DNA of 64,000 bases, the filler included, from Dirinaria sp. TL-2023a (Eukaryota): assembly GCA_051941275.1 (NCBI GenBank). It is 7 parts of 7 records of this genome, joined end to end, with 100 filler letters (N's around TTAATTAATTAA, not from the genome) between each part and the next. Parts side by side here need not be neighbours in the genome. Positions count along the whole stretch, not along the records: positions 37,196 to 46,388 come from JAVEBF010001085.1; 6 more parts are not named here. The stretch is one strand, 5' to 3'. Within the stretch, counting starts at the first letter, position 1, and each line of letters starts with the position of its first letter. The position numbers and the translations under genes were made by a program. Below are positions 1,837-55,777 of the stretch, one piece after another. The notes under the pieces were generated by a model that saw only the letters and a program-made list of their open reading frames with translations, did no database searches and was not told where the DNA came from.

Positions 1837-1964
1837 CTCTAAATCATATGTAGTTTACGCGGAGGGTACGAGCAAGGCGAGGCACCATGTGCAAGTAGCG
1901 AGGCTCACATGCAAAGAGCGATGGCTACAGTACCAAATGTACAGCCAAGGGAAATGTCCCGCGG

Positions 1965-11133: not shown

Positions 11134-11291
11134 TACTCGTACTCACCTACCTTACTTTCTTGGGAGGGTTAGGGTTACCCCCATCAGAATTCTTCCAACC
11201 CTACCTTATTTAGGGTTATGGGATTCTTGGTGAGATAACCCTAACCCTCCCAAGAAAGTAGGTGACCCAAGAAAGTAGGTGAGTACGAGTA
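11134..11291. mobile_element. 158-bp foldback/MITE-like element with TTAGGG-containing inverted arms, TA-flanked
   Basis: Left arm TACTCGTACTCACCTAC..ACTTTCTTGGGAGGGTTAGGGTTA (11134-11177) is the reverse complement of right arm TAACCCTAACCCTCCCAAGAAAGT..GTAGGTGAGTACGAGTA (11236-11291). The right arm carries a duplicated CCCAAGAAAGTAGGTGA. Confidence 0.7.
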
Positions 11292-11701
11292 TCCGGATGG
11301 GGGCTAGTGGCCTGAATCAATTGGGCAGCCCCTTTATCCATGTCGTCTTTGTACATGGAGATAAAGATCACTGTGCGATGAATCTTGTCCACCGAAATAC
11401 CATATTCCTCTTCCCTTTGACAATGACGCATGTGGACAGAAGGTCCAGGATTGAGGCGCATCATGTCCGTAGCCTTGGCATCAGCTCGATACCTAGCCTT
11501 GGTTTTGAGTGACCGGATGACGAAAATTGTTCCACGACAGCTCTCAGGTACCTTATTGTCTACGGTGTTGAAACTTGATTTGGGTGTGGGATCGAAGGAT
11601 TCTTCTGAGCTGCGTAAAGCCTCCATAACCCCTTGGTCAAAGGTTAGGGACAGATTCTGTGGAATCATTAGGTAGATGTATTCGAAATCCGGCGAGGCCA
11701 A
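11292..11701 (-). pseudogene. Hypothetical ORF running into the foldback element
   Basis: The 161-aa ORF's last ~24 codons derive from the inverted repeat. No recognisable domain, so it may be spurious. Confidence 0.25.
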
Positions 11702-12032
11702 CGCTAGAAAGCGGTGGAATCAATTATAGTATGTAGCTATATTGAGCTTTCAGAACAACAAAGCTCGACTCGGCATGATGAGAGCATTTTCTTCCAGCAC
11801 TGCCTGAAATGCTTTGAAGGAGAAGTTACCAGAATAAAGCTTTGCTTGCAAATGGGGAGATCCAGCGCCACGTCCTTCGATAGGGTTGGTAGCAGCTAGA
11901 AATCTTCCTAAGCCATCTGAGAGACTGGGAATGCTGCCATAGGGCGCATCGATTCCCTAAGCTGTGGTACTTTGTCAAATCACGAGCTCGGTTTGGCAAT
12001 GCGTGCTTCGATGCTGTGCAGCCACGAACCTG

Positions 12033-13841: not shown

Positions 13842-14169
13842 GTAGAAAGCAGAAACGTGAAGCGAGACGCGGCTCGATAGATCAGAAAGGCCCAAAGTCA
13901 GCTTAGACAAGTCTATCGGAAAGCTAGAGCAAAGTCATACCGGTAAGCAATTAGTGATAAGACAAGCGATCTGGAAAGTAGTCCGTAAGTATCATGATTA
14001 CTAATAAGGTAAGTACGGAGTAAAGTACTTGGCTCTATTTCAGTCCGGCAAGCCACAACGCCATTTGCGCAAAAAGCTACTTTGCCAATGGTAGCCCAGG
14101 AACCTCCAGAACCTCTTGTTCTCTGAGAGCTGACAGACTCCCATCCATGAGGAAGTCAACGCTTCCGAT

Positions 14170-15014
14170 ATGATGTCCTCGACCAACAACAATGACCCTT
14201 TCCTGGAAGCGCAAGCGTCGGTCTCGATATATCACCACCTCAACCCAACCCGCTGACCAGTGAACAGCGATGTCCTTTCCAGCATAGACACTACGCGGTC
14301 GCTCTTCTCTTCCTACCTTCGGATCCGCTCTCTTGCCTCTGCCACTTCGCCCGAACTCGTTCAAGCGCGTAAAGAGCTTGAAACCGCGGTTCAAGACCTT
14401 AGCTCCGACCTTCAAGATCTGGTCGATAGCGTCCGCGCAGTCGAGCGGGATCCATTTCGCTATGGCCTCGAGATTGACGAGGTTGGGAGGCGGCGCAGAT
14501 TTGTGGGGGACGTGGGCAACGAAATCGAGGATATGAGGAAGGAGCTCAGAGATACGACAGGCAGGAGGAAAAGCTCAGGCGCCAACGGCACGACACTACC
14601 ACCGCCAGATACTTTTGGCTTGGACTCTCCTCCGCCCGAAGAGAGAGACGATTATGGGGCATTTGAGGAACAGAGACAGGTTGAGATGATGCAGGAGCAG
14701 GATGAGGCGCTGGACGATGTATTTCGGACCGTGGGTAATCTAAGGCAGCAGGCAGATGACATGGGAAGAGAGCTCGAAGAGCAAGGGGAAATGCTCGAAG
14801 ACGTGGATAATCTAGCGGATAGGGTAGGAGGAAAGCTACAGAATGGGATCCAGAAAGTTGGATGGGTCATCAAGAAGAATGAGGGTAGAATGCGGCCATC
14901 ACAGATGCAGCTCGTTTGGAAAGCTAACAGTTGGCAGACACATGGTCGAGCTGCTGCATCGGAGTCCTCATACTGGTGCTCATCCTACTGCTCGTGCTCG
15001 TACTTATTCTCTAG
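14170..15014 (+). CDS. TLG1: Tlg1/syntaxin-6 family Qc t-SNARE (2 introns)
   Basis: N-terminal NDPFLEAQ|ADVL, DLQDLVDSVRAVERDPFRYGL, SNARE motif QDEALDDVFRTVGNLRQQADDMGRELEEQ, and a spliced C-terminal TM SCCIGVLILVLILLLVLVLIL*. Confidence 0.92.
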
Positions 15015-16983
15015 GCTCGGAGAACTTGCGCCTTACAACAGTTGACAGATCACTCGCCCGCACCGCCGACGCCACGCCATGTACCTAGTTCACCGGTTTT
15101 CCTCCTAGCCCAAGCGATTGCTTGCTATCACCAACAACTCAACTGGTTACTGTGGCATCAGTACGACCATCGTAATCCTTCCACGATGTCTCGCTCATCT
15201 TTTGTCGAGCTATTGAAGCTTTGGACTGATAAAAAGCCGTGCTAGCGCGGGGTTGCACGACCTTGGAGTTCTCGACTTTGTACCTGATGAAGGGCACGAC
15301 TGGTCAGCGCTCAGACTGTTTCATGCAACGGCACAAACGAGCCGATTCAGTAGTCATCCCAGGCTCTGGTAATAATTTACAGGGGATGGCGTGGCTCCGG
15401 TTCTGGACCCATCGGCGTCGAGAACGAGGCAGCCTAGGGCCGGAGGAGATGAATGAAAGGTGTTGAAAGAAGACAGGTAGGAGTAGATTGTAGTAAGGCG
15501 TGACAGATATTCAGGGGCCATTAGCAAGAGTGGCCGAGCAGAAGCAGTCCTGGAGATGGGACACATTTAATTCAGGAGTAATGTTGTTAGTGGTGTATGT
15601 GCCCATTCACGTGATCCTGTACTTGAGGCCTTGGGCGCTTGCACGATCACTGATAATCATCCATTAGTATTGCCGAGTCTCTGAGATCTTTGTACGGGAG
15701 TACTAGTGTCTCAGATGCTGTGGAGTCATTGCTTGGTACCCAATCGCTGCTGTCGGGCCGGTTCTGTTGCCGACAAGATGCTTGGCAGCAGATTCACCCC
15801 TTGTGGTGATCCGGAGCCCCTGATGGATTCCGAAGACTTCCTCCTCCCTACTATTCCCGAAACTCTACCACACCACGTCGTGACATTGTTCGTGTTTCGA
15901 TGATGGATGGCCATCATCGACACTTTTCCTGTTGATCCACTGCTTCTGTCCCCTGTACTCGTACTCGTACTACTGCCTTGTCTCATGCTGTCCATTCACT
16001 CCGCCATTATGACCCACTCAAGACCAAGCCTCGGATTAGGCTCGCACCAAGTTACAAGCATTGTACCTCAAGTATTTGAGACCTCACTTCATACTCTAGT
16101 CCTCTCTAGCCAGGCTGCTTCACCTCCAGCGCATGCGTATTGCGCAAGCTCTTCTCTAGCTCTGAAGCGCGCGTTCTTGGTTCATGCATCAGGAGTCAAC
16201 TCAGAACTGCATGGACCTCGTTTCTATTGAGAGCCTGCTACGCGCTCCCACTTAGTTTCGTTTTACCCTCATCGCCACTTCACCAGTCACTCGCCTTTGC
16301 GCCTTCCCAGATGAACTGTAGCAAGGCATCGGACCACCACAGTCCACCATGGACTTGCAGACGGGGTCGTCTTGAAATTGAAGCTTGGCAACTATTTAAA
16401 CACCATCCATGTCCCACTTGATCCTCTATCAATCAATACGCGCTGCACTCCTGTCTCGGCTGGCCCATACTCACATTTTCCTTCTCTACAGAACATTCTG
16501 CTGCTCGACGCGGTCTCACTACACTTTCGTTCTACAATACCATTGTTGAAACTGCATTAGGTAAGCTCCGTGACATAATTGCATTGATCCCGAAACAAGC
16601 CTCTCCTTTGTTCTCATTCACTCTTCACTGTTATGTTCGGTATACGCTACAACCCTATTGTTGTTTTCATTGTCAGCATCAACAATTTTATTGTTCATGA
16701 TGCTTCACCACACGGTTGAGGGTCTCTTTGTTTGGAGCATTCTTGCCACCACCAGTATTTATAGATTCTCCGCCACCGCTTTCTAGAACTCCATCTCGCA
16801 CCATCAAACCCAGTTCGATCTAACAAAGCGGCAGACAAAAGTCCAGCTACAAAAGCAAAAAGCATTCTCTTTTTCGAAACTTCGTCAGGCACGAAGTTCC
16901 CACATTCTTAAGAAGCCTTTCCACAGATTCTTCAGGGAAGATCATCTACAACAAAAAAGAAGAAAAAAAAAACTACCTGCATC

Positions 16984-18138
16984 ATGGCACCAACTTCAGC
17001 TATTCTCTTCGCCGCTGCGACCATCTTTTCTTCAGCTTCGGCTCATATGAAGATGGTCAACCCACCTCCCTACGGCCCGGACTCTCTTGACAACTCACCG
17101 CTCCTCGCTGATGGGTCCAACTTTCCTTGCAAGAACAACCGACCTGACGTGTTTGGACCACCCAAATCGACTGCCACCATGCCCATTGGTGCTAAGCAGA
17201 CTCTGCAGCTCCAAGGTGGCGCTACCCACGGTGGCGGTTCTTGCCAGATTTCTTTGACAAAGGACTTGAAGCCAACAAAGGACAGCCAGTGGATGGTCAT
17301 TCACTCTATCGAGGGTGGCTGCCCTACCTCCGCAGCTGGCAACATCGGCGAAGACGCAGGTGCTCTTGACCCTACGACATTTGAATATTCGATTCCCGAC
17401 GGCATTGCTCCTGGCAACTACGCGCTTGCTTGGACCTGGTTCAACAAGATCGGTAACCGTGAGATGTACATGAACTGTGCACCTGTCACTGTCACTGGCG
17501 GTAGCAAGAAGAGATCCGAAGAGGTCGAAGAGCCTGCCTTCAACGAGACCATGGGTTCCGAATACGCCCTCGCCGAACGCGCCGCTTCATTCCCCCCCAT
17601 GTTCACGGCGAACATTCCCGCTACAGATTGTACCACGACGGAGTCGACAGACGTCGAATTCCCGAACCCAGGCCAATCCGTTGTTAAGAATTCGCAAGCT
17701 TTGAAGCCGCCGACTGGCCCTAAGTGCGGCCAAGGCAACGCCGCTCCAGCGGGTGGTTCTTCAGGCTCCGCCCCATCTGCCGCTCCCCCCGCTGCTGCCC
17801 CTTCGGGCTCCGCTGGGTCTGCGAACTCGCCAGGTACCGCTACAGTCCTCGCTTCGCCTTCCGCTGCAGCTCCGTTGCCCTCCGCCGCCGCCGCCGCCCC
17901 AGCTCCGGCTGCTGCAGCCCCATCTGCGGCCGCACCAGCTCCCTCCGCCGCTGCACCAGCTACTGGCGGAAGCTCTTCCTCCGGCTGCAGTGAAGGCGCG
18001 ATGATGTGTTCCGCAGATGGTACTCAATTCGGTCTCTGCGCCAATGGCCAGGTAAAGTTTCAACCAGTGGCTGCAGGAACTAAGTGCACCTCCGGCAAAA
18101 TCGACTTCGCCAAGCGCAGCGCCAAATTCCGGGCCTAA
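16984..18138 (+). CDS. AA11 lytic polysaccharide monooxygenase with A/P/S linker and C-terminal 4-Cys module
   Basis: The signal peptide ends ASA, leaving N-terminal His (HMKM). Also HGGGSCQ, WTWFNKIGNREMYMNCA (His brace plus Tyr) and a C-terminal CSEGAMMC..FGLCANG..VAAGTKC. Confidence 0.9.
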   Translation: MAPTSAILFAAATIFSSASAHMKMVNPPPYGPDSLDNSPLLADGSNFPCKNNRPDVFGPPKSTATMPIGAKQTLQLQGGATHGGGSCQISLTKDLKPTKDSQWMVIHSIEGGCPTSAAGNIGEDAGALDPTTFEYSIPDGIAPGNYALAWTWFNKIGNREMYMNCAPVTVTGGSKKRSEEVEEPAFNETMGSEYALAERAASFPPMFTANIPATDCTTTESTDVEFPNPGQSVVKNSQALKPPTGPKCGQGNAAPAGGSSGSAPSAAPPAAAPSGSAGSANSPGTATVLASPSAAAPLPSAAAAAPAPAAAAPSAAAPAPSAAAPATGGSSSSGCSEGAMMCSADGTQFGLCANGQVKFQPVAAGTKCTSGKIDFAKRSAKFRA

Positions 18139-18507
18139 AGGCTGACAGGTTTCAGTCTTCGGATGGTTGGGTTGTCAAAATTCGCTCTGCGCCCTGTGTT
18201 TTCTTTGAAAAAATTACTTGCTGTTGGGTTTTGGATATAGCATATTGTAGCATGCATTGGGTAGGTAGGATAAACTGTACTTGAAATAGCATAGCATGTT
18301 GTAGTTACTTTACTTCAGATGGAACATTTTATAGTCATTCACCACCCCTCCAGACTTGCTCATCTGCCCGCTTTTCTCTCCTTCCATTTTTTTGACTTTA
18401 ATCCAACCCTAAGTAGTGCAACCCTAAGTTCCCCAATCATTCTAAAAATTAGTTCTAACGTTGTCATTTCTTTTTTCTATTCTGTCGCGTTCGTAACGTT
18501 TCTCGCT

Positions 18508-18607
18508 NNNNNNNNNNNNNNNNNNNNNNNNNNNNNNNNNNNNNNNNNNNNTTAATTAATTAANNNNNNNNNNNNNNNNNNNNNNNNNNNNNNNNNNNNN
18601 NNNNNNN
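18508..18607. other. Artificial contig linker
   Basis: 44 N + TTAATTAATTAA + 44 N. Confidence 0.98.
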
Positions 18608-19532
18608 CCTCCATACTTACTCGCACTCCTCTGCAATCCCATCCCCATCCCCGCATTCCCATTCCCATTCCTATAATTCCCTGGCCCTTCAGGCATGAGA
18701 TAGAAATACAAAAACTCGACGAGCTTAAGCTTCACCTCGCGGCTCGTGGAGCGCGCTTTGAACAGCGAGGTAATAGTGAGCAGGCCGTCGAGGGATTCAA
18801 AAGCGCGCGTGTTTTGAGGTGTGGAGAGGAGGGCCGTGACGAGGGTTAGGAGCGTGCTGGACTGGATTGCGGGACAGGACGTTGGGTCGAGGAGGTCGAG
18901 GAGGAGCTATTTTGGAGCGGGAGATTTGCGTTAATGGCGGGCTGGGGTTTTTGGGGGAGACTGGTAGGGGAAGGAGGAAGATGGGAGGAGGGGAAGACAA
19001 ACATTCATGTATATTTCGCGCGCGAAGAGGGAGCGCGAGGGAGGGTGCATGAGGAGGATGCCGTGGAGGAGATCGAGGGTCGAGACTATGAGGAGGTCGT
19101 TTTGGCCATCTTTTTTATCATTCATTTTTCACTTGTCAGCTTTTTCACCCATATCTTCCGCGATTGAGGTAAAAGCAAATGGAAACCGATTGAGAACTCA
19201 CTACTCCCCTTCCCAAGCAACCTCTCCAAACACGCCACCAGCCTCGTCGCGACATTCCATTCGAACCCTTCTTGCAACTTGAAAAATTCCCGGAACGCGG
19301 GGTCGTCTTTCAAGCTCGATAATTCTTTCGTAGCTGTAGCGGATGGATCTGAAGAAGGAGGGTGGTTGTTGTTGTTTAGGGCGACGGAGCGCCGTCTGTT
19401 GTTGTTGCTTGCGCTTGGTTTCGAGAGACAGATCTGCGCCAGCAGACCTTCGAGCTGGCGCAGTCCTTTGCGAATTTTGACCCCGTCGTGGGAAGAGAGG
19501 TAGTCGAAGGAGAGGGAGAGCAGGGATTCCAT
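18608..19532 (-). CDS. cdc14: Septation initiation network component Cdc14 (S. pombe type, not the phosphatase); 3' end truncated
   Basis: MESLLSLSFDYLSS..KIRKGLRQLEGLLAQICL, DPAFREFFKLQEGFEWNVA and GILLMHPPSRSLFAREIYMN. Later exons continue to the linker. Confidence 0.85.
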
Positions 19533-20093
19533 TTGCGCGTTTCGAGTATTAGGTGGTGGGGTGGGAGAGAGGGTTCTTGGGATGTGGTGATGAGGTAATG
19601 GAAGTTAGATGTGCGGGTTATTGGAAAAAAACTCTAAACAAACACCTGTTGGCCGGGTAAACATGTCAGACCTTTCTACGGACGTCTCTTTGTGAAGATC
19701 AACTTCATCTCGTTTTCTTCATACTTTTGGCATTCAATAGTAATACCTGGGCACAGTCATGAACATTCAGGATGCAGCACTTTTGCTTATGATGGGTCAT
19801 CCGACTCTTCGACGAATTACTGGATGTCACTTTGTTTCGTTTGAACTTCTTGGCTTGCAGGGGCGCCTACTTAAGCTGCATATGAACATACTGTAATAAC
19901 GCTCTCGCAGTAGACATGTAAACACGATATGGGGTCATAGGCACAGGTAGAATCCACCTAGCCAATGGAATGCAATAATCCTGGCTGTACCGTAATACTG
20001 GTTCACACTGACCGTGTGCCAGCAGCACATGCTCCCCTTTTTAACGCCGACGCTATGCATTTTCCTGAGGCGAATGGCACGCGATGCCTCATT

Positions 20094-27801: not shown

Positions 27802-27901
27802 NNNNNNNNNNNNNNNNNNNNNNNNNNNNNNNNNNNNNNNNNNNNTTAATTAATTAANNNNNNNNNNNNNNNNNNNNNNNNNNNNNNNNNNNNNNNNNNN
27901 N
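27802..27901. other. Artificial contig linker
   Basis: 44 N + TTAATTAATTAA + 44 N. Confidence 0.98.
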
Positions 27902-35528: not shown

Positions 35529-36338
35529 TCAATGACAAGCCACGCTCTTGGTAGCAGACGAATTTCCAAAAGCCAAGTAACCCACAAAAGCACCCACCGC
35601 AACCGACAGCATAACCCAACCGTTATACGTCATGAACAGCAACCTGCCGATGGAATCGCTTCAGCATTTCGCATTTCCCCACAAAACTAGGCCTTCCCCC
35701 CCTCCCCAGTGCCCCAACAAAAAGAATAGACACAGATACTCACATGATAAAAAAACTGTAAAAGACCTGAACGGCGTATAACGCGGCCTTGACCAACTTG
35801 ACCTTGGTCTCCGCCTGCTGCGCATTTTTCCCTGACCAAAGCAATGATGAGCTGCGATCATTGCTGTTGCCTCCATCGACTATCGAATGTTTTGCTCAGC
35901 CGTCATATCTCCCGGCCCCAGCCAACCTCCAACTTCCCCACAACAACAAAAGTTGCAGACAACAATCTTCCACAGGTTTACGCGAAGGGACCGGAAGAAA
36001 CTTACTGGGTAAACTATTCATATACTCCGCGCTCGAAGCCTCGTACCGGCGGCTCATGTCGCGGACGAACTCGTAGCCGGCGGTCAGAAGTATGACGCCG
36101 AGGAGGGAGAAGAGCAGTGTGGTTGTGGAACGGATGTGCCAGCCGGGGAAGATGATGCAGAGGTTCGTCGTGTCCCATGTGAAGAGCATCTATGCACACG
36201 GCAACAGAAAGAGTGTAAGTAAACGGTGGGCGGAACAGCTGGAGAAAGGGGGAGGAGGTATATATGTACGCTCATCTTGCATTGGGAGCCTGAGCCCATG
36301 TCCATGTCTCCGTGGCCCATGTGCGAATGGTGGTCCAT
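35529..36338 (-). CDS. CTR2: Ctr-family copper transporter (vacuolar Ctr2-like; 3 introns)
   Basis: His/Met-rich N-terminus MDHHSHMGHGDMDM, CKMS|MLFTW, MLLFMTYNGW (MxxxM), GAFVG and C-terminal ACH*. Confidence 0.92.
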
Positions 36339-36725
36339 TGTAAGCCTGAGAGTGAGAGCGCCGGAGGGTTCAGATGGAGGTAGTTCGAGCGAGGTGCCGA
36401 TATAGAGAATAGTTCTGCGACAGCGAGATCTCTTGCGCTCTTTTCGGAGATCGAAGAATGATTTACGCCTTTTCCCTAGAGCTCCAGCAAAAGCTAAAAA
36501 AAAAAAAAAACAGAAAAAAAATCCGAAATCCAAGTGTCTTGTTCAGCTATTGAAGAACATCTCCGTTGTCAGATCGAAAGTATCACCAGATCCAACCGAG
36601 CAAACAGTGCAAACACCCAACGTGCTTTTCTCGAAAACTCCAATATCTACAACCACACCCACGCCCAATTAAAACTCCAAACCCCTCAAAGATCACATCC
36701 ACGGTGTATGTGACCTAGATAGGTA

Positions 36726-37095
36726 ATGGCCGAAAACGCCCCTCCACCATCCACCACCGCCACCGGCGCCGGCACAAACCCCTCCACCGTCCCCACCACC
36801 ACAACCACAACAACCACAACCACGAACGCAGACTCGACGCGCGGGCTGCCGTACTACGAAAAACTCAAGCGCGACCTGCGATCAACCCTGCTGAAAAAAT
36901 CGCACCTGGACAAATCGCTCTCGGCGCTGGAATCGAGCCTGTACCGGCACGAGACGCTGTACCTGGAAGACACGTCGGCGGGGAACATCATCCGCGGGTT
37001 CGATTCGTACATCAAGGGCTCGAGCACGGCGCCTGCCGCCGCTGCTGGGCCCACGAGCCAGAGCAGCACGCGCCGCAAACAGGGCGTCGGGGACG
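36726..37095 (+). CDS. EAF6: NuA4/NuA3 subunit Eaf6, truncated by the linker
   Basis: GLPYYEKLKRDL..LE..LYRHETLYLEDTSAGNIIRGFDSYIK. Confidence 0.9.
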
Positions 37096-37195
37096 NNNNN
37101 NNNNNNNNNNNNNNNNNNNNNNNNNNNNNNNNNNNNNNNTTAATTAATTAANNNNNNNNNNNNNNNNNNNNNNNNNNNNNNNNNNNNNNNNNNNN
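37096..37195. other. Artificial contig linker
   Basis: 44 N + TTAATTAATTAA + 44 N. Confidence 0.98.
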
Positions 37196-37675
37196 CAGAT
37201 GTGTTGCCCCATGGCGTTGTACCTAGAGTGTTGCTGGCACTAGCGTGGTTGCCTCGGTGAGTTCTACCTTATGTAGAACCCACACACACATACTTCATAG
37301 ACTTTAGACAATGCAATGCTTCATGTATGCCACTAAGTGCATTGCTCAGTGCTTCAACATCCTTGACGGATACTATTGAAGGTCAAATCTATTTAGACGC
37401 CAATTTGACCGCGCATTTTCTCAGATCTTCAAGTCAATCTCTCTGCAAAAAATCCATACGGAAGTTCTATTCTACGTCCTCAAAAAGTAACATGACGGGA
37501 TGCGAGACCAGGGCAGGGAAAATTTCTTTATGCTCGACTCTAGTATCTATCATCTTAGCTTTGGCATACTAATATTGGTAGGAGGCGAATAGAAGGTTTC
37601 TAATAAATACGAAGTGTCCGTCCCCAGCACGGGTTGAATCGAAATAGGTCTTCTAGCGCTCTTTGGGACGCCTTT

Positions 37676-39307
37676 TTATTCCATAGCTGGTCTTTGGACA
37701 GGCCACAGCGCGACTTTCGCCCCATTACCACTTTCTGTCGTAATTCTATATACTTCCACAAACTCCTGCACAGCGTCTCTGCACTCGATCTTCTCAAATT
37801 CGAGTAGAATCTGTACAATGCAATATCCTACTTCTGTCAACGCCAGCTGCTGCCCAGGACAAACCCTCGGTCCGCCGCCGAATACCATATAACTCCATGG
37901 TACTGGTCGCAATGTCTCCCAGCGCTCAGGCCTGAAGATGTGTGCATCTTGTCCGAAAAGATCAGGCCGACGATGGAGTGCATAAAAGGATACTGTCACA
38001 ATGGAACCCTCCCGAACAAAGATTGGCACGGCTTCACAAGTCGGTTTTTTGTATGCTCGTCCTCCTGTGGGTAGAACGGTGTCGCGTAGAGCCATGCGTG
38101 TGGTCGTGCCAATTGCGGGGTTAAGGCGAAATGTCTCGTTAATAACATACTGAAGGTATTTCACAGATTTGAGCCTCTCAAAAGTCCACTTGGGTCCGCT
38201 GTGATCGCTCTTTTCCGCGTCGCTTGCCCAGACCGCTGGGGCGGACAATATCTCCGAACGGAGCTTGTCATAGACGTCAGGGTGACGAGCAAGGTTGAAG
38301 AATACATTGGTGAGAGTTACAGCTGTAGCGTCGTGTGCGGGTAAAAAGACGTTGAGGAGTTGGTCACGGATACTTGATGATGGCTCGTTACTTCCTTTGA
38401 TGAGCTCGTGCGCGAGAACGTAATGTTTCGGCTCTCCTGCGCCTCTGATCTGCCTTTTTATCGTGTCGGTTCCACCACAGATGGACATTCCCTTTGCAAT
38501 ATAGCCTTCTGCAAACTCATGGGCAACACGGCAAGAATCTGAGAAACGTCTGTCTTTCCTGATAAATTTCCATCTGGGCAACTGAATTCTTTGACCGACA
38601 GCACTTTGACCATAACTATAAGCTGACAAAAATGATTGCGCGTCTTTTGAGACGCCATTGTCTGTCAAAGAACCGATAGACTCTCCAAAAAGAAATTCCG
38701 TTGAAGAATCCAACGCAAGTCGGACGAACAGCATCCTTAGGTCCACTGTTGAACCATCTCTAGGTATCAGCTTTACAAGTCGCTGCACATGATCGGCATA
38801 CGCGTCCAGATGCAGGTCCGTTATATTGGTTCTAGTGAATGTCGGCTTTATCAATGCGCGCGAGTGCTCCCATAAAGCCCCGTCAGTGTTCATGATTCCC
38901 TTTCCAATAAACGGTTCAAAAGCGAAGAGACGCATTGGTTGGACCCCCCAACTAGAGAACTCTGTCGCAAAGATGGTCTGAAGATTTTTGGGCTCTATAG
39001 TGTATATCTTCGTTGGAGCGATCCAGGACTTCGATTGGAATGTAGGTCCATAAATTGAGAACAGCTGCTTGATCGAGATATTACGTCGGTTCTCTTTGAG
39101 CGCACGAGAGAGTCTCCAAGTGGTGTCGAGCCCAAAAAGTGGGTCACGTTGAGCAATGGATGGCGGCGGCCGACAACCATACCTCCTAGACATCGAATGT
39201 CGACGATAGAATCTTCTGATCAGCGATGATAATATAATGACTAGTGAGGGAAGTGTACCCAACATGACTAGTAAGGACGGGGAAGCAAGCATGGCGATGA
39301 TTTGCAT
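37676..39307 (-). CDS. Cytochrome P450, CYP52-clan-like, intronless
   Basis: N-terminal TM, DPLFGLD, GKGIMNTDGALWEHSRALIKPTF, LDSSTEFLFGES, ETFR (ExxR), PERW and heme motif FGGGPRVCPGQQLAL. Confidence 0.95.
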   Translation of the reverse strand: MQIIAMLASPSLLVMLGTLPSLVIILSSLIRRFYRRHSMSRRYGCRPPPSIAQRDPLFGLDTTWRLSRALKENRRNISIKQLFSIYGPTFQSKSWIAPTKIYTIEPKNLQTIFATEFSSWGVQPMRLFAFEPFIGKGIMNTDGALWEHSRALIKPTFTRTNITDLHLDAYADHVQRLVKLIPRDGSTVDLRMLFVRLALDSSTEFLFGESIGSLTDNGVSKDAQSFLSAYSYGQSAVGQRIQLPRWKFIRKDRRFSDSCRVAHEFAEGYIAKGMSICGGTDTIKRQIRGAGEPKHYVLAHELIKGSNEPSSSIRDQLLNVFLPAHDATAVTLTNVFFNLARHPDVYDKLRSEILSAPAVWASDAEKSDHSGPKWTFERLKSVKYLQYVINETFRLNPAIGTTTRMALRDTVLPTGGRAYKKPTCEAVPIFVREGSIVTVSFYALHRRPDLFGQDAHIFRPERWETLRPVPWSYMVFGGGPRVCPGQQLALTEVGYCIVQILLEFEKIECRDAVQEFVEVYRITTESGNGAKVALWPVQRPAME

Positions 39308-39581
39308 TTGCGACCGATTTTTCTAAGATCACCGCTTCTTTTTTTGTTTTCAAATGGACCTGGCTCAATACGCGAGACAGAGAGATTGAGATGTTCGAGC
39401 AATCAACAGTGAAGATAATATATGGCTGAGAAAGACAGTGAAATGCTGCATAAGGTGGGGTGGATACTAAGCTGCGCTAAGTCATATAATAATGTCCGAA
39501 GTACCACAAAATGATGACCACGTCTGCCCAGGCTTGTTTATGCACGGAGGTAGCTTCTCTATGTATACTTTCGTGCGCAAA

Positions 39582-39940
39582 TCACTCCCTGCAAGTAATG
39601 CAGTTTCTGCGTGGTACCCAAGTCAAAATCTTGCGCACGCAAGTGTCCCAATTTCTACATACCCGACTTTGAGGCCGCTTAGTCAAGGCTCGCATCCTTG
39701 ACCGCCTGACCGGCCAATTTCTACGTAACGTAGTCTGGGATTCGAAGCGATTCTGCTCAATGTATTGATCCGGCATCATGTTGGAGAAGAAGTACCGTGA
39801 ATATTGATAGCCGTATTTCCATAAGAAAATTTGACGTCACCTGCTTTGAGATTACAAGAGAACCCCAGTGACAATATGCGCAGACGATCTCTAAACAAGC
39901 CTGGTTTCTGTCATTCTGAAACCGTTTAGCAAGCTTCAAG
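39582..39940 (-). pseudogene. Decayed UstYa/DUF3328-like oxidase relic
   Basis: Fragments in the expected order: QACLEIV...HW, YSRYFFSNM.P....EQNR and RVCRNWD(TCVR)KILTWV. No intact HxxHC motif. Confidence 0.4.
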
Positions 39941-41565
39941 AAGCTATTTAGCCTTCAGACTGAGCATAGAATTGTGCTACAAACTGGGTGGTAACGGGAG
40001 AACAGCAGCTCTACTAACAAACGCGTACTAGGTGAGAGATTCCATCAGCAAAGGAGGCCAATATTTCAATCAGTCCACTAACGGGAGCATTAGGCTTCTC
40101 TATAGCCTCAAAGATTTTTTGTAATGCAATGCCCGAATAGAACAGCAAAATAGCTCGCTAATATGCGTGAATGTGACTGCCTTTAGACAATCCATTCACC
40201 TGTAGCATATGACATGCCTTATAAGTTGGACTTAGATGCCTACCTTGGATAGTACGGAATTAATACTGTAGTTGGAGCCCAGTCTGTAATGATACAGTTT
40301 CACAACAAAATCACCCAGGTATTGTCGTTTAGACGTTTCTAAGTTGACACCGCTAGAGTATCAAATGCATGCATGGTTGCCTTCTTTTGAGATTCTGCTC
40401 CATGCAGGATACTTTGGTACCCTATCTGCAATCCCGCACCATTCACAGCCTCTTACACTTGGTCGGAATTCGGCAGGCATCATGTACACCCGAGGTTTTC
40501 CGTCGCATGACACTCGACGTGTGCTGACCTGACCCACAAATAATACAATCTCGATGAGAGCCATTCGAAAACTATACCTAACCTAGTCAGTGATCAGACC
40601 GTTGCAGCATTAATTCTAGCATATCGGATTTTCTCTTGGAACATGAGCGATTCTAAACGCTCCTTAGTTCTCTCGTCTCAACACGCGTGCCCAGACTTGT
40701 GTAATAGGTCTTGTCTAGTACCATCAGGACAACTGCTGACCCATTTTTTTTTCGCCTGGTTCTCAATAGTAGTATTGATTTCGCTCTAGATTCAGTTCAG
40801 TACGAGTACTCTCCTACCACTGCTGCACTAGTCAAAAAGTCGGAAAAGAACTACTGGCCTATGATAGATCAAGGATGGAAAGACTGAAAGCCCAGGCAAT
40901 CCTAGCCTGTTGCTGCTTTGTGTTACTTACTCCAAGCATGATCTATGCATAGCTCACCTGCGCTATCTGCAGGCAATGCTCCGTAGAGTCCCCGCTCATT
41001 GCTCAGTAGCATGCATACCTACTCAACCCTGTGAAGATTTGCGAAGCCGGCAGAGAATGTTTCAGTGTACCACATGTCAATTCGTGCTGGTCGTTCCGAG
41101 AGGCTGAGCTCGATCCGACATTTCCACAGGCGGGCACGAGAATTGCCTGATCCTCTAGTTTGCTGCTCAATAACTGCACGGCTGACCGAAATGCATGCAT
41201 ATGCCCTAAAACGGCACGGTAACCGGCTTCCAAGCGTAAGTACGGAAATGGCTCATTACCTTCAATCTCCGCCCAATAAGGATTACTGCTAGAACAGTGG
41301 GGGCTAACATGGATAACGCGCGGGCGTTATCCTAGGAATAGAGGACAACTTGAGGCTCAGATTACTGCCGGGCTGAGAAAGGGTCTATGCTGGCTTATGA
41401 CTCTTTCCAAACGATGCTTCCTACTTTTCGTCCTCTGTGTCGAGTCTTTCCCTTGTTCACAAGTCAGCAAGATTGGCGTTTCAGAGCTGCTTCTTGTTTT
41501 TCACCAAACAAACATCATATAGAGGACACGTCAAACAGCAAGAATCGTTTATGAAATCGTCAGAC

Positions 41566-42017
41566 ATGCGTACGGCCAGTCTTATCACCAGCTTGATCTA
41601 TCTTGACCTGTACTCAAGCGCTTCACCTATAATTTGCCCCATTCCGGAAGTCCGGTATTTGAGAAACAACGTTGATAATATTTGACAGCTATCCATCGTC
41701 GCGAAGTTGCACACACCAAAGCCGAATCCGGTTCTTCCAGACGTAGCGCCGCCGAGAATGCCGTAGAGTATCCTGATTCTTACAAACGCGACGCCGTCGA
41801 GGGTGCAATTGTATACCCGGATAGCTATAAGCGAGACGTTAGCGTTGGACGATGCGATTGCTCATCTGGATTGTTATAAACGCAGCATGATGCCAAAGCG
41901 TATCCTGATTCTTACAAACCTGATGCTGCTGACGATCTGGTTGCGTACCCTGATAGCTATATGTCATCTGCCCTCGCGATAAAGGTGCTTTGCTCGCCGT
42001 CTCACCAGCATCTGTGA
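41566..42017 (+). CDS. Kex2-processed repeat peptide (KEP)/dikaritin-like precursor with YPDSY core; possibly pseudogenised
   Basis: Signal-like MRTASLITSLIYLDLYSSASPI; four same-frame YPDSY copies (41769, 41814, 41901, 41946), two followed by KR; acidic spacers; two degenerate copies. Confidence 0.7.
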
Positions 42018-42217
42018 GAGGCTTCTTAGCCGCTAAAGCCTTATGAGCGTCAGCTTTGACATATGAGGGTTGAAACAACTCCGTGACATGGATCTACGGA
42101 GTCATATAATAAGCACTACTCCCCTTTATGACCCACTTAGTGTTATTAATGGCTTCTTTACGTGTCACGCCGACTAATGCGTTGACCCAATTTTGAACCG
42201 ATTTTGCGGTGTGATGT

Positions 42218-42245
42218 GGTAGGTAGGTAGGTAGGTAGGTAGGTA
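42218..42245. repeat. (GGTA)7 microsatellite, followed by short degenerate tandem repeats to ~42480
   Basis: Direct inspection; also TGGCACAGT x3 at ~42449-42478. Confidence 0.9.
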
Positions 42246-43502
42246 AGGTACACCATGTAAGGTAAGTATGTACCTTAGGTAAGATGGGGGGGTATCATGA
42301 ACAGGTAGAAATACCTTGCCGGAGCTGCTTTTGTCAAGCTGCCTGAGCTGCCCCCCGAGCCCCCGAGCTGCCCTGAGAGTTTCAGTGAACCCTCGCAGTT
42401 GCACCCTCGCAGAGTCGCAAGCCTCGGTCCGCAGCGGGACCCGCGCGGTGGCACAGTTGGCACAGTAGTTGGCACAGTAGTAGCTAAGTTGCCTTTAGCC
42501 TTCTATTGCTTGTCTGAGCTTGTCTGACAGTCTGAGCTTCGGTCATGTTCGGGCGAACCTGCCACACAGGAATTACGAGTACATGTACTAAGAAAGTACT
42601 ATCATATGTACTTTTAAATTAAATTGAAAGGTCAGCGCAATCATTAAATGGACCCTGGAAACATCTGCCCTGCTAACTTGATATGCTGATAATAATCCCA
42701 GCTTCGCTTAAAGCTCTCTCTCTCGGTGCTATTTCCCATTGGGAGGGTCAATAATAATCCCGATTGACTGCATGATCCAGATGTCACGGAGGAATTCATT
42801 GCTTGTCGTCCTGTGCCAAGCCTACAACCGCATCACGAAATCGATATTGATAACCCGCTAACGAATGACCTAAGACCCTCCGTCTGCTGAAGAAAGGCAG
42901 CAAGAGGAAAACGGGTTCAGGCACGGCTGCAGAACCAACCCCCTTAGGATCGCATTAGGAATTTAGGATTTGCATTTCTTCAAGATCGACTAAAAAAGGT
43001 AATGGAGATCTACCTGAATCCCATCGATTGGCTTCACACAGGGTCTTACCTCCTTCTCGACGACCACCTTCGGTTAGAGACCTTCTGTAGATCGCTGTGG
43101 ATCATACTACAGTACATGCAACTCATGGGACTCGGATGTCGTGCTTTTCCACCACGTGGCTGTGACGCGTCTCGTACGGTTTCTTCGCAACTAGCAACAC
43201 TTCAAACTATATTGCACCAGGTTGTTCGATCAAAGAGCGCCTCGCTTGCCCGCTTTGATCTCATTTCCTGGGGAATCACGTCATGGAGCAATTTGAAAGG
43301 GGTAAGGTACAGCTCCACGCCTTTTTAACTAGCTCACCAGGAGATTGTGAGATCGCGCCTGCCATCGGCCTCCGTGGAAATGTCCTCATGCACAATGGAT
43401 ATCTATGCTTGGATGTGTACAGAAAAAGGATAGACCCGTGGGCCTGGCCAGTGCCGTCCCGCCTGCGCCCCGTCCAGCTACCCACATTGAGGAGAGATCG
43501 CC

Positions 43503-45872
43503 TCATAGATACACATATCTGCACGCATGCACCGGATCAGTAAAGGCGTCTGGCGAGGTGGTGCATAATAGGGCTAGCTTACCTCCAAATACGTGCTCGC
43601 ATGTCGCCGCTACCAGTGGCGAAGAGCTCCCCGGTAGGGCAAGGAGCCACCGAGATGACTAAAGCGGTAAATGTCAGGAACGCTTGCGACTGGACAGGGA
43701 TTGGAACTTGCCTGAGTTTTTGTGACCTTGCAGCATAAGATGGGTTTCCCCAGTTCCAGGGTGCCAGAATTGGACCCCTCGGTCTTTGGAGCCGCTAAGC
43801 ACCCATTTACCGTCTGGCGTTAGAGCCACACTGAGGACAAAGTCCTGGGGTAATCCGTTAGCTCGAACCACGCAATGCACATGATTTGTAGCTGGGGGGT
43901 TCGACAGACCTTGTGACCCTCAAATGTTCTTAAACATCGTCCAGTTCGGGACGTTTGCTGGGTGATCATGCCGTGGGTGTTGGTCAATTCCCACATTTTG
44001 ATGGTTTTGTCCAGACTGCCGCTGACCAAAGATCTGCCATCGGGCGCGAATGCTACGGAATATACGCTGTCCTTGTGACCTTCCATGGCGCCATCGAGCC
44101 TTTCGACCAACAAGCCAGTGCGAATGTCCCATACGCGGACGCTCTTGTCCAAGGATCCAGCGGCGACAAACTCGCCCCCGGGAGACATGGCTACGGTTGT
44201 TACGCCATCTTCGATGATGAGGTTCAACACTTCTCGTCCGCTATCGAGATCCCAGACACGCACGGTGCGATCGCCACTGCCAGATGCAACGTTCTTGCCA
44301 TTCCGTGAGAAGTCCAAGGAATAGATGTCTTGCTCATGACCAGTGAACGTGTGCCGGATTGTACGAGATTCAATGTCCCACACCTATAATGAAAGTAGTT
44401 AGCATATGACCTTACTGAAGTAGCAGTGCCTGAAGAAAACACAACGAACCCTGATTTGCTTGTCCTCTGCGCCGGTTGCAAGATATTTCCCATCGGGGCT
44501 GAAGCAGACACTTCGAATATACAAGTCACCGTCTTTGTCAACGGTCTCATCTTGGAGTTTGGTGAGTTGACGTCCAGTGGAAACTTCAAAGATTTGGGCT
44601 GATCGGTTGCACCCAGTAGCAATATATTTGCCGTCCAGACTGAACCTAACACAGCAGACTACGCTTTCGTGCGCGAGGTTGTGCATAAGATCCACGTCCA
44701 GACCTCTTCGAATACGCGGATTAAATACCGCGAACCAATCACCACCATCGTGTTTTAGCGACGGAGGTAGTAGGTCTGGATCCAGGTCAGCCAGCGTGTT
44801 GCCGACATCTTGGATTGGAGGCTGGGGATGTGGAGGGGTCTGTCTGCCCATTCGGGGCGAATTTCTCTCAGGGTATGGCATAGGCTGAGGTTGCTGCGGG
44901 GTTGCTGGACCTTGACCCGGTGGTCCTGGTGGTCCGCGATTGCTGCGAGCTTTACCTGGCCCGGGTGAAGCAATGACTTGCGAGTTCTGTGAATTATAGC
45001 CTAAGAAATCAGCTTATATACTCGCTGAAGAAAAGCGGTGTGGTTTTACGCAAGGGGCTGGGCTGCAAGGGGGCTTACCGTTGACAGGAGCGCCAGGGTA
45101 ATTGGGAAAAGGAGGTTGATGCAGCCCAGGCGGTGGCTGTGGCATCTGGTTCTGGGGGGGACCTTGCGGCTGGTCCTGAGACAGTGGAACCAAGCCCGGG
45201 TTGCCTTGGCCTGGTGGATTTGCCATTATCCCACCAAAGAGGTTGCTGGGCCCATGGCCAATAGCAGGAGGCTGTGACTGTGAGACTCCACCATGGGGAG
45301 GCAGACCGCTGACACCTACGTGGGAGGGTGGGCCACCGCGAGCTTCAAGCTCGTGACGCAAGCGGGCGATATCGTCGTCATATCTACGAGTCAAGTTCAG
45401 TTTCGGTGCAAACTGAGTATGAAAATCCATATTCCCTACCTTTGCTTCATGAGGACCTGGTTTTGCTCTAGGGTGTAGACTTTCTGCCTCACCATCTCCA
45501 TCTCTTGCATCTGTGCTGCCACTAAAGAGTGTAGATCGCTGATCAGCAAGCTTCGCTTTTCGTTCCCCATCTTTGCCCACCAACAGAGGCAAGAATTCAA
45601 TAACGAACGACCCGGAGGGCTGGGGGGAGATGTTGCATCATTATGAAGCTCCCGGGTTTGGGTAGTCTGGAGTAGGATACAAAGCAGCACCGGAGGAGCG
45701 CATGGTGCAGCGCAAAGCAAACGGATGGAGAGCTCCAAGCAAACTTACAATTCTGCTCATACTCTGCGGCCTTGTTCCTTTCGCCATCAAATTCTGTGCG
45801 GACCTGATCCAAGAGCTCCGTCAGACGAGTGTTCGCCTGGGTGGGAACCATTCCCCTGTGGGTGTTGTACAT
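43503..45872 (-). CDS. TUP1: General transcriptional corepressor Tup1/RcoA (WD40; multiple introns)
   Basis: N-terminal [74 protein letters not shown] and [18 protein letters not shown]. Confidence 0.97.
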
Positions 45873-46388: not shown

Positions 46389-46488
46389 NNNNNNNNNNNN
46401 NNNNNNNNNNNNNNNNNNNNNNNNNNNNNNNNTTAATTAATTAANNNNNNNNNNNNNNNNNNNNNNNNNNNNNNNNNNNNNNNNNNNN
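46389..46488. other. Artificial contig linker
   Basis: 44 N + TTAATTAATTAA + 44 N. Confidence 0.98.
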
Positions 46489-55677: not shown

Positions 55678-55777
55678 NNNNNNNNNNNNNNNNNNNNNNN
55701 NNNNNNNNNNNNNNNNNNNNNTTAATTAATTAANNNNNNNNNNNNNNNNNNNNNNNNNNNNNNNNNNNNNNNNNNNN
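55678..55777. other. Artificial contig linker
   Basis: 44 N + TTAATTAATTAA + 44 N. Confidence 0.98.

What the first reader, a model, noticed from the sequence alone, without database searches (positions are those of the whole stretch)
41566..42017. Secreted repeat-peptide precursor with a YPDSY core (candidate fungal RiPP/KEP)
Seen: after a signal-peptide-like exon (MRTASLITSLIYLDLYSSA-SPI) the + strand encodes RR-SAAENAVE-YPDSY-KR, DAVEGAIV-YPDSY-KR, HDAKA-YPDSY-KP and DAADDLVA-YPDSY-M, all in one frame, plus two degenerate copies (KAESGSSRR; DDAIAHLDCYKR, the latter shifted by +1). The core is written with different codons (TAT CCT GAT TCT TAC vs TAC CCN GAT AGC TAT, even TCT vs AGC for Ser), which points to selection on the peptide rather than a DNA minisatellite. 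Established: signal peptide + acidic spacer + Tyr-containing core + KR is the architecture of Kex2-processed dikaritin precursors (ustiloxin YAIG, asperipin-2a FYYTGY). Inference: a two-Tyr core could be ether-macrocyclised. I do not recognise YPDSY as a characterised core. An Asp in the signal peptide, lost KR sites and frame problems suggest erosion.
Basis: partly seen in the sequence, partly recalled or inferred. Interest (0 to 1): 0.8.

Follow-up and report, generated by a model that had tools for sequence, protein, structure and literature searches.

The report
Decayed fungal cyclic-peptide precursor gene
This is a worn-down copy of a small secreted repeat-peptide gene that, in related fungi (many of them lichen-forming), lies beside the enzymes that would turn its YPDSY peptides into a modified natural product; here the peptide gene is damaged and those enzymes are gone.

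Summary
Four in-frame x-YPDSY units lie at 41745-41960 (+). They are the only four exact matches to the degenerate YPDSY pattern in 64 kb and are written with synonymous codons. A fifth, +1-shifted unit and a signal-peptide-like ATG exon at 41566 are also present.

A metagenome scan gave 19 loci with intact genes: signal-peptide exon, intron, then 6-10 units A-[IV]-A-Y-P-[DE]-S-Y-KR. All 15 loci with at least 2.8 kb of upstream DNA carry UstYa (DUF3328, PF11807) genes 1.3-3.9 kb upstream. Many also carry an O-methyltransferase, a SAM methyltransferase and a P450 49-64% identical to the window's neighbour at 37676-39307. This is the layout of a dikaritin-type RiPP cluster, and I found its core nowhere in print.

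The window's copy looks dead:
- an in-frame TAA at 41877-41879;
- every unit departs from family-invariant positions;
- KR is lost after two units;
- the signal peptide is weak and lacks a canonical splice donor;
- no UstYa or O-methyltransferase trace anywhere in the window.

Verdict: relic of a new member of a known kind.

The parts
41566..41654 (+). Signal-peptide-like first exon (MRTASLITSLIYLDLYSSASPI...). It is homologous in position to the MR..AAP[LV] signal exons of intact relatives but is weakened.
   Evidence: Best 10-residue Kyte-Doolittle hydropathy is 1.86, against 2.69-3.00 in six relatives. It contains Asp. No GTRNGT-type donor follows it.
41655..41740 (+). Best formal GT-AG intron joining the ATG frame to the repeat frame (GTATTT...TTCCAG, 86 nt). 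The donor is weak and the splice is unverified.
   Evidence: Enumeration of 80 formal models. Relatives have canonical donors such as GTAAGA, GTATGA, GTAAGC and GTATGT directly after the signal exon.
41745..41789 (+). Unit 1, SAAENAVEYPDSYKR, preceded by RR at 41739-41744. It has Glu where the family has Ala just before the first Tyr.
41790..41834 (+). Unit 2, DAVEGAIVYPDSYKR. It has Val where the family has Ala just before the first Tyr.
41835..41885 (+). Unit 3, degenerate and shifted to the +1 frame (LDDAIAHLDCYKR). Read in frame 0 it gives a TAA at 41877-41879. Positions 41838-41885 could formally be a 48-nt GTTAGC...CAG intron.
   Evidence: 2 mismatches, +1 frame. The intron reading is my inspection and is untested.
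41886..41921 (+). Unit 4, HDAKAYPDSYKP. It has Lys where the family has Ile or Val, and the Kex2 site KR has become KP.
41922..42017 (+). Unit 5, DAADDLVAYPDSY, followed by an 18-residue tail (MSSALAIKVLCSPSHQHL) and the stop. Relatives have KR or a stop codon at this point.
37676..39307 (-). Intact cytochrome P450 gene. It is the only other surviving member of the cluster seen in relatives.
   Evidence: PF00067, E 3.7e-47. 60-64% identical to the P450 of L004 and 49% to that of L018; partial matches of 52-59% in L009, L012, L013 and L015. The FGGGPRVCPG heme motif is in the ORF.
39308..41565 (.). 2.2-kb stretch with no recognisable gene, in the place where L004 carries an O-methyltransferase and two UstYa genes.
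   Evidence: No Pfam hit in any ORF of 45 aa or more. No tblastn hit at E<=10. Lineage HMMs give a best E of 0.4.

Best explanation
The locus is a decaying, most likely non-functional, copy of the precursor gene of an uncharacterised UstYa (DUF3328)-type fungal RiPP family.

In intact relatives the gene encodes:
- a signal peptide on a first exon;
- a short pro-region ending in a dibasic site;
- 6-10 units of the form spacer-A-[IV]-A-Y-P-[DE]-S-Y-KR.

In four of the seven lineages the stop codon follows the last ...YP[DE]SY directly (L001-3, L004, L017/19, L018).

Inferred pathway in those relatives:
1. The precursor enters the ER.
2. The two neighbouring UstYa oxidases install Tyr-derived ether cross-links within the A-Y-P-[DE]-S-Y core. 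The chemistry would resemble asperipin-2a, because no tyrosinase gene was seen in the fetched flanks.
3. Kex2 cuts after each KR in the Golgi and a carboxypeptidase trims KR, so the second Tyr becomes the C-terminus.
4. The clustered O-methyltransferase, SAM methyltransferase and P450 tailor the peptide.

In this window the two UstYa genes and the methyltransferases are absent. The P450 survives as an intact ORF. The precursor has accumulated a frameshift pair, an in-frame stop, loss of two KR sites and substitutions at invariant positions.

Shown: homology, architecture, neighbours, damage. Inferred: the chemistry, the processing order, and that the window copy makes no product.
For: Homology:
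- phmmer of the window peptide against 1.84 billion representatives gave 13 hits, 8 at E<=1e-10 and the best at 1.4e-18. All but P0012, which carries a divergent AFPDLY repeat inside a 496-aa protein, carry AYP[DEG][SA]YKR repeats, and several have clear signal peptides.
- A profile search gave 14 proteins. The named ones are all 'hypothetical protein', from Seirophora, Haloplaca, Endocarpon, Byssothecium and Bimuria.

Intact genes:
- 19 metagenome loci have 3-10 units.
- Signal exon plus canonical intron were read in L001, L004, L005, L016, L017 and L018.

Selection on the peptide:
- 50 of 50 units from 7 lineages keep Y-P-[DE]-S-Y.
- 48 of 50 have Ala at -6 and 50 of 50 have Ile or Val at -7.
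- Third codon positions vary, and both TCN and AGY Ser codons are used.

Cluster:
- UstYa (PF11807, E 1e-8 to 1e-17) matched ORFs of two adjacent genes in L001, L004, L007 and L018.
- UstYa homologues lie upstream of the precursor in 15 of 19 loci. The other 4 have under 1.2 kb of upstream DNA.
- HXXHC motifs are present.
- O-methyltransferase is found in 10 of 19 loci, SAM methyltransferase in 10 of 19, and a P450 in 7 of 19; six of those seven are 49-64% identical to the window's, and L001's is a 30% paralogue.
- P0003 is a fused gene model of repeats plus P450.
- The Seirophora scorigena precursor and P450 carry consecutive locus tags.

Decay in the window:
- TAA at 41877-41879 and the +1-shifted unit.
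- All 5 units deviate from the profile.
- KR has become KP, and KR or stop has become Met.
- Signal hydropathy is 1.86 against 2.69-3.00.
- None of the 80 formal GT-AG models has a consensus donor after the signal exon.
- No UstYa, O-methyltransferase or methyltransferase trace was found.

Background:
- DUF3328 proteins are needed for cyclisation of ustiloxins, asperipin-2a and phomopsins through Tyr ether bonds (passages of PMC7329392).
- The asperipin cluster has no tyrosinase (passages of PMC6514808).
Against: - No RNA or product data exist for the window or for any relative.
- One formal model gives an uninterrupted ORF of about 95 aa: intron 41655-41740 plus a 48-nt intron 41838-41885. 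L016 shows that canonical introns can sit inside such arrays. Splicing could therefore rescue the frame.
- The window's whole genome is not held, so UstYa genes elsewhere in the genome cannot be excluded.
- The P450 is intact, so the locus is not uniformly decayed.
- No tyrosinase, transporter or peptidase gene was seen in the relatives' flanks. Only ORFs of 90-100 aa or more were scanned, in 5 of the 19 loci.
- The relatives are metagenome contigs whose organisms I did not determine.
Confidence: 0.75

Rival explanations
1. The window's gene is still alive. Two weak introns (41655-41740 and 41838-41885) are spliced out. The resulting secreted protein would carry two KR-bounded units (SAAENAVEYPDSY and DAVEGAIVYPDSY) followed by a tail holding two more YPDSY motifs. 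UstYa enzymes encoded elsewhere in the genome would modify it, or it would be released unmodified.
For: A formal GT-AG model with an open frame exists (plus reading). Relative L016 has two genuine introns inside its array. The two frameshifts compensate each other within about 50 nt, so the downstream units remain in frame. The neighbouring P450 is intact.
Against: The donors GTATTT and GTTAGC are poor, whereas relatives use GTAAGA, GTATGA, GTAAGC and GTATGT. The supposed 48-nt intron is plainly a former repeat unit. Both KR-bounded units carry Glu or Val at the position that is Ala in 48 of 50 family units. The signal peptide is weak. No UstYa gene lies in 64 kb.
Confidence: 0.13
2. The family is not a RiPP family. 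It would be a set of unmodified Kex2-released secreted peptides (pheromone-like or signalling KEPs), and the UstYa, methyltransferase and P450 neighbours would serve another pathway.
For: Most KEPs (78%) have no DUF3328 neighbour, and many are thought to be linear peptides (abstract and passages of PMC7329392). No product is known. PAL, alpha/beta-hydrolase and a fungal-rhodopsin-domain (PF20684) membrane-protein gene also recur nearby and have no obvious RiPP role.
Against: UstYa genes lie 1.3-3.9 kb from the precursor in 15 of the 15 loci with room for them. This holds across lineages whose gene order and orientation otherwise differ. Mating-factor KEPs are, with three exceptions, not accompanied by DUF3328 genes (PMC7329392). 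The core holds two invariant Tyr, which is the residue UstYa enzymes cross-link.
Confidence: 0.1
3. A chance or minisatellite repeat with no coding meaning.
For: There is no continuous ORF. The locus sits in a gene-poor 4-kb gap.
Against: The four exact pattern matches all lie in one frame, and none occurs elsewhere in 64 kb. Differences between units in the core are all synonymous. Protein-level homologues score down to E 1.4e-18. TRF finds no DNA tandem array.
Confidence: 0.01

Closest known systems
Asperipin-2a precursor AprA with the DUF3328 oxidase AprY (Aspergillus flavus)
   Same: Signal peptide plus KR-bounded repeats of a Tyr-rich hexapeptide core (FYYTGY there, AYP[DE]SY here). DUF3328/UstYa gene(s) lie next to the precursor and the cluster has no tyrosinase. 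The ether links there run from Tyr side chains to beta-carbons (passages of PMC6514808).
   Different: No sequence similarity of the core. Relatives here have two UstYa genes plus an O-methyltransferase, a SAM methyltransferase and a P450, rather than AprY, AprR and AprT. The product is unknown. The window copy has no UstYa gene at all.
Ustiloxin precursor UstA with UstYa/UstYb, UstQ and UstM (A. flavus, Ustilaginoidea virens)
   Same: A repeat precursor processed at KR by Kex2. A pair of mutually homologous UstYa-family genes beside it. A methyltransferase and a P450 in the pathway (PMC6514808: passages and the legend of its Figure 9).
   Different: The ustiloxin core YAIG is flanked on both sides (ED...KR), whereas here KR or the stop follows the core directly. 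The tyrosinase UstQ is essential there, and none was seen in the 5 loci scanned here.
Phomopsin precursor PhomA (Phomopsis leptostromiformis)
   Same: Signal peptide, eight KR-flanked core repeats, several DUF3328 genes and an N-methyltransferase (PMC6514808).
   Different: A tyrosinase (PhomQ) is required, there are five DUF3328 genes, and the core is different.
UstY-containing 'Clan R1' clusters of Parmeliaceae lichens (Pasinato & Singh 2025, PMC12048977)
   Same: Lichen-forming Lecanoromycetes. Two UstY signature genes together with an O-methyltransferase and a SAM methyltransferase (abstract and passages read).
   Different: Clan R1 has a tyrosinase and an FGE-sulfatase, its O-methyltransferase lies between the two UstY genes, and its authors found no repeated precursor. 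The loci here have a clear repeated precursor, no tyrosinase in the flanks scanned, and the O-methyltransferase beside the pair rather than inside it. Whether the two are related was not tested.

Membership tests
Kex2-processed repeat protein (KEP) | N-terminal signal peptide | tested here: inconclusive
   The window has MRTASLITSLIYLDLYSSASPI, with hydropathy 1.86 against 2.69-3.00 in six relatives and an Asp in the hydrophobic stretch. No signal-peptide predictor was available. Relatives have clear MR..AAP[LV]-type signal exons.
Kex2-processed repeat protein (KEP) | Tandem repeats each bounded by KR or RR | tested here: inconclusive
   In the window, 2 of the 4 in-frame units are followed by KR and RR precedes unit 1; units 4 and 5 end in KP and Met. 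In relatives, all units other than the last of each array are KR- or RR-bounded.
Kex2-processed repeat protein (KEP) | One uninterrupted coding frame through the array | tested here: not met
   In-frame TAA at 41877-41879 and a +1-shifted unit. Only an unverified 48-nt intron would rescue the frame.
Dikaritin / UstYa-type fungal RiPP precursor | DUF3328 (UstYa, PF11807) gene(s) near the precursor | tested here: not met
   Window: none in ORFs of 45 aa or more at 39300-43850, nor in ORFs of 85 aa or more at 20000-64000. tblastn and lineage HMMs over all 64 kb also found nothing, the HMMs with a best E of 0.4. ORFs of 1-20000 were not put through Pfam. Relatives: met in 15 of the 15 loci with at least 2.8 kb upstream.
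Dikaritin / UstYa-type fungal RiPP precursor | Repeated core containing Tyr | tested here: met
   Two Tyr in every in-frame core. Both are invariant in 50 of 50 relatives' units.
Dikaritin / UstYa-type fungal RiPP precursor | Tyrosinase in the cluster (original definition of Ding et al., as quoted in PMC12048977; absent from the asperipin cluster) | tested here: not met
   No tyrosinase Pfam hit in the window ORFs scanned or in ORFs of 90-100 aa or more of L001, L004, L007, L016 and L018. Flanks were limited to 10 kb.
Dikaritin / UstYa-type fungal RiPP precursor | Methyltransferase in the cluster | tested here: not met
   Window: none. Relatives: O-methyltransferase in 10 of 19 loci and SAM methyltransferase in 10 of 19.
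Dikaritin / UstYa-type fungal RiPP precursor | A cyclic, ether-bridged peptide product | not testable with these tools
   Needs expression and mass spectrometry.
AYP[DE]SY repeat family (defined here) | Sequence homology of the repeat region | tested here: met
   E 1.4e-18 to 3.4e-4 for 13 proteins. tblastn 50-60% identity to L004, L005 and L007.
AYP[DE]SY repeat family (defined here) | Invariant unit positions: [IV] at -7, A at -6, Y-P-[DE]-S-Y, then KR or stop | tested here: not met
   All 5 window units break at least one rule: E or V at -6, K at -7, HLDCY, KP, or Met after the core.
Fungal alpha-factor-like mating pheromone precursor | MF_alpha-type profile; no DUF3328 neighbour | tested here: not met
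   No Pfam hit for the window frames. Relatives do have DUF3328 neighbours, which mating-factor KEPs lack with three exceptions (PMC7329392).

The most novel reading that the evidence does not exclude
The A-[IV]-A-Y-P-[DE]-S-Y repeat proteins are the precursors of a new, tyrosinase-independent dikaritin-like RiPP class. The class would be common in lichen-forming and some other ascomycetes, and largely invisible in annotations because the small two-exon gene is rarely called. Two UstYa oxidases would bridge the two Tyr-containing ends of the core, and an O-methyltransferase, an N-methyltransferase and a P450 would finish it. The family would supply the 'missing' repeated precursors for UstY clusters in lichens. 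The window would then capture such a cluster in the act of dying, with only the P450 kept.
Probability: 0.5. Interest if true: 0.6.

Novelty: new member of a known kind. Interest (0 to 1): 0.42.

Why it matters
Few fungal UstYa-type RiPPs have a known structure: ustiloxins, phomopsins, asperipin-2a, victorin (recalled, not checked in a call) and epichloecyclins. A recent survey of 111 lichen-fungal genomes reported UstY clusters but could not find repeated precursors for them (PMC12048977).

This follow-up links a clear, strongly conserved repeat precursor (core AYP[DE]SY) to a pair of UstYa genes, two methyltransferases and a P450. The link holds in several lineages whose gene order otherwise differs. 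That gives a concrete cluster to express and a predicted core mass to look for.

The window's own copy matters less. It is an example of cluster decay in which one tailoring gene outlives the rest.

Tried and rejected
- Word-indexed protein search with the window peptide (59-191 aa candidates): 5 candidates, none scored. The exhaustive phmmer search was needed instead.
- Whole genome of the window: not held. Paralogous or relocated UstYa genes could not be sought.
- Sequencing runs: none was listed and no RNA holder was listed. Expression and splicing are therefore untested.
- Tandem Repeats Finder: no array at the locus.
- Earlier findings of this scan: nothing to show.
- Literature: YPDSY, AYPDSY, AYPESY, YPDAYKR, PDSYKR, PESYKR and IAYPD, searched anywhere in full text, gave only irrelevant papers. 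YPDSY, YPESY and YPDAY are absent from the three held supplementary tables of Umemura 2020. Those tables list accessions and types and may not hold sequences, so this is weak evidence of novelty.
- Cluster-member look-up for accessions, to cross-check Umemura's table: the query could not be made.
- Synteny of the window's other neighbours (Tup1, JmjC, Ctr, GYF, TIP49, DEAD) with the 19 loci: no hit at E<=1e-5.
- Rejected: a dikaritin cluster present in the window itself, because no UstYa gene was found.
- Rejected: 'KAESGSSRR' as a degenerate repeat. It is more likely the pro-region's first dibasic site.
- Considered and left open: identity with lichen 'Clan R1'.

Full report
**1. The observation**

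On the + strand an ATG at 41566 opens MRTASLITSLIYLDLYSSASPI. Frame 0 from 41679 reads ...AESGSSRR-SAAENAVEYPDSYKR-DAVEGAIVYPDSYKR-DVSVGRCDCSSGLL and stops at TAA 41877-41879. The same frame resumes as TQ-HDAKAYPDSYKP-DAADDLVAYPDSY-MSSALAIKVLCSPSHQHL, with the stop at 42015-42017. Between the two halves the +1 frame reads LDDAIAHLDCYKR.

- The degenerate pattern TAYCCNGAYWSNTAY has four zero-mismatch matches in the 64-kb window on both strands. All four are here and all are in one frame.
- The fifth copy, at 41863, has two mismatches and lies in the +1 frame.
- The remaining 20 matches, with one or two mismatches, are scattered; 15.8 are expected by chance.
- The cores are written TATCCTGATTCTTAC (units 1 and 4) and TACCCGGATAGCTAT or TACCCTGATAGCTAT (units 2 and 5), so every difference is synonymous.
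- Tandem Repeats Finder sees no DNA-level array.

The frame is broken by an in-frame stop. 'KAESGSSRR' is better read as the pro-region's first dibasic site than as a degenerate unit.

**2. The setting**

The window is ascomycete-like DNA with housekeeping genes:
- Hrd1-like RING ligase
- homeodomain protein
- FAA hydrolase
- DEAD-box helicase
- F-box/JmjC protein
- Ctr copper transporter
- Tup1
- GYF-domain protein
- TIP49
- Prp3
- RNA polymerase large subunit

The locus lies in a 4-kb gene-poor gap. On one side is an intact cytochrome P450 on the - strand (37676-39307; PF00067, E 3.7e-47). On the other is Tup1. No ORF matched UstYa/DUF3328, among those of 45 aa or more at 39300-43850 and of 85 aa or more at 20000-64000.

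**3. Relatives**

The word-indexed search found nothing. An exhaustive phmmer search of 1.84 billion representatives found 13 proteins, 8 at E<=1e-10. Apart from P0012, which carries a divergent AFPDLY repeat inside a 496-aa protein, they carry repeats of the form [DE]A[IV]AYP[DEG][SA]YKR, and several begin with a clear signal peptide.

A profile of seven of them (A1) retrieved 14 proteins. The named ones are 'hypothetical protein' entries from:
- the lichen-forming fungi Seirophora scorigena, S. villosa, Haloplaca sp. and Endocarpon pusillum;
- the Pleosporales Byssothecium circinans and Bimuria novae-zelandiae.

The same profile retrieved 19 loci from metagenome contigs. I sorted these by similarity into about seven lineages: L001-3; L004; L005-6; L007-15; L016; L017/19; L018.

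**4. Anatomy of the intact genes**

- Six lineages were read in detail. They show a first exon encoding a signal peptide (for example MHSSIILIVTLCASVIAAPLG or MRFTAIVVVLATVASAAPV...), a canonical intron (GTAAGA, GTATGA, GTAAGC or GTATGT, with a CTAAC/CTAAT branch site), and then the array.
- Arrays hold 3-10 units.
- In L001-3, L004, L017/19 and L018 the stop codon follows the last ...YP[DE]SY directly. This places the C-terminus of the released peptide at the second Tyr.
- Over 50 units from seven lineages, Y-P-[DE]-S-Y is kept in 50 of 50, Ala at -6 in 48 of 50 and Ile or Val at -7 in 50 of 50.
- Third codon positions vary freely, and both Ser codon families are used. This is selection on the peptide.
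- L016 carries two canonical introns inside the array, each splitting AYP|ESY.

**5. Neighbours of the intact genes**

All-against-all comparison of ORFs, Pfam and tblastn give these maps:

| Locus | Gene order |
|---|---|
| L004 | P450 (-), O-methyltransferase PF00891 (-), UstYa (+), UstYa (-), precursor (+), then aminotransferase, alpha/beta-hydrolase, fungal-rhodopsin-domain (PF20684) membrane protein, SAM methyltransferase |
| L018 | Pyr_redox_2, O-methyltransferase, SAM methyltransferase, P450, UstYa, UstYa, precursor |
| L007-15 | O-methyltransferase, UstYa, UstYa, precursor, PAL, hydrolase, membrane protein, SAM methyltransferase, P450 |
| L001 | UstYa, UstYa, precursor, SAM methyltransferase, and further genes |
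| L005 | UstYa, UstYa, precursor |

- UstYa homologues lie 1.3-3.9 kb upstream of the precursor in 15 of 19 loci. The other four have 5-1119 bases of upstream DNA.
- The UstYa ORFs carry HXXHC motifs.
- No tyrosinase was seen in ORFs of 90-100 aa or more of L001, L004, L007, L016 and L018.
- The P450 of L004 is 60-64% identical to the window's and that of L018 is 49%. Partial matches of 52-59% lie at the edges of L009, L012, L013 and L015.
- Two independent signs of the same linkage exist. P0003 is a fused gene model of repeats plus the N-terminal half of this P450. In S. scorigena the precursor and the P450 carry consecutive locus tags on one 22-kb contig.
- Order and orientation differ between lineages while the linkage holds, as in a biosynthetic gene cluster.

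**6. What has happened in the window**

Only the P450 and the repeats match the relatives.
- tblastn of every ORF of 50 aa or more from six loci finds nothing else at E<=10 in 36000-43800. It finds one irrelevant hit elsewhere at E<=1e-3.
- HMMs built from the relatives' UstYa exons and O-methyltransferase score no better than E 0.4 against the six-frame window.
- The P450-to-precursor gap is 2.2 kb here, against 6.1 kb in L004, where it holds three genes.

The precursor itself is damaged:

| Unit | Damage |
|---|---|
| 1 | Glu at the Ala position (-6) |
| 2 | Val at the Ala position (-6) |
| 3 | Frame-shifted, reads HLDCY, and yields the TAA in frame 0 |
| 4 | Lys at the Ile/Val position (-7) and ends in KP |
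| 5 | Leu at -8, then an 18-residue tail in place of KR or stop |

- The signal exon is less hydrophobic than in relatives (1.86 against 2.69-3.00) and contains Asp.
- Of 80 formal GT-AG models that join an ATG to the repeat frame, none has a consensus-like donor after the signal exon. The best is 41655-41740, GTATTT...CCAG.
- A 48-nt GTTAGC...CAG stretch (41838-41885) could formally remove unit 3 and restore the frame. It is plainly a former repeat unit, and its donor is poor.

**7. Mechanism**

By analogy with ustiloxin, phomopsin and asperipin-2a (passages of PMC6514808 and of PMC7329392), the intact relatives most likely work as follows:
1. The precursor is sent through the secretory pathway.
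2. Its cores are cross-linked at Tyr by the two UstYa oxidases.
3. Kex2 cuts at KR.
4. The two methyltransferases and the P450 tailor the peptide.

The absence of a tyrosinase in the scanned flanks points to asperipin-like phenol-O to beta-carbon ethers rather than ustiloxin-like chemistry. All of this is inference. In the window the pathway cannot run as encoded locally.

**8. Novelty**

The core is not in the searched literature, nor in the three held supplementary tables of Umemura 2020. The named members are unannotated. A survey of lichen RiPP clusters found UstY clusters but no repeated precursors (abstract and passages of PMC12048977). Whether those clusters are the same as the ones here is untested.

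Umemura counted 1758 KEPs with DUF3328 neighbours, so another such family is a new member of a known kind, not a new kind.

**9. Verdict**

The window holds the relic of a UstYa-type RiPP cluster: precursor eroded, oxidases and methyltransferases lost, P450 kept. The more interesting result is the family it led to.

Noticed in passing
L016:3135-3720: Two canonical introns (GTAGGT...ATAG and GTACGA...ATAG) lie inside the repeat array, each splitting a unit between AYP and ESY. A stop-to-stop reading therefore wrongly suggests a broken gene.
   Followed up: partly
window 41769-41960 and L004:8431-8847: Codon spellings of the core alternate unit by unit: TATCC.GATTCTTAC against TACCC.GA.TC.TAC or AGCTAT. 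This holds in both the window and L004, which suggests that arrays grow by duplication of two-unit blocks.
   Followed up: no
L007:15889-17130: A Tc1/mariner-like transposase ORF (DDE_3 plus HTH_Tnp_Tc3_2) sits inside the cluster between the hydrolase and the membrane-protein gene. The sister locus L009 lacks it.
   Followed up: no
L001, L007-L015, L016 (for example L007:11264-13138): A phenylalanine/aromatic ammonia-lyase, an alpha/beta-hydrolase and a gene for a membrane protein with Pfam's fungal rhodopsin domain (PF20684) recur next to the precursor in three lineages. Their link to the peptide pathway is unknown.
   Followed up: no
P0015 (Bimuria novae-zelandiae), P0016 (Endocarpon pusillum): Other family members also look eroded or reduced. 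P0015 has units AYPGSYKW, AYSESYKR and APYLESY. P0016 has only two units. Decay of this gene may be common.
   Followed up: no
P0054, P0056: Two P450 relatives are annotated as fusions with a class I/II aminotransferase domain. L004 has an aminotransferase ORF 1.4 kb downstream of the precursor.
   Followed up: no
window 42218-42250: A (GGTA)8 microsatellite lies just downstream of the locus.
   Followed up: no
window 9208-9307, 18508-18607, 27802-27901, 37096-37195, 46389-46488, 55678-55777: Paired 44-base runs of N recur about every 9.3 kb. They look like masking rather than assembly gaps. One pair interrupts an ORF at about 36720-37150.
   Followed up: no
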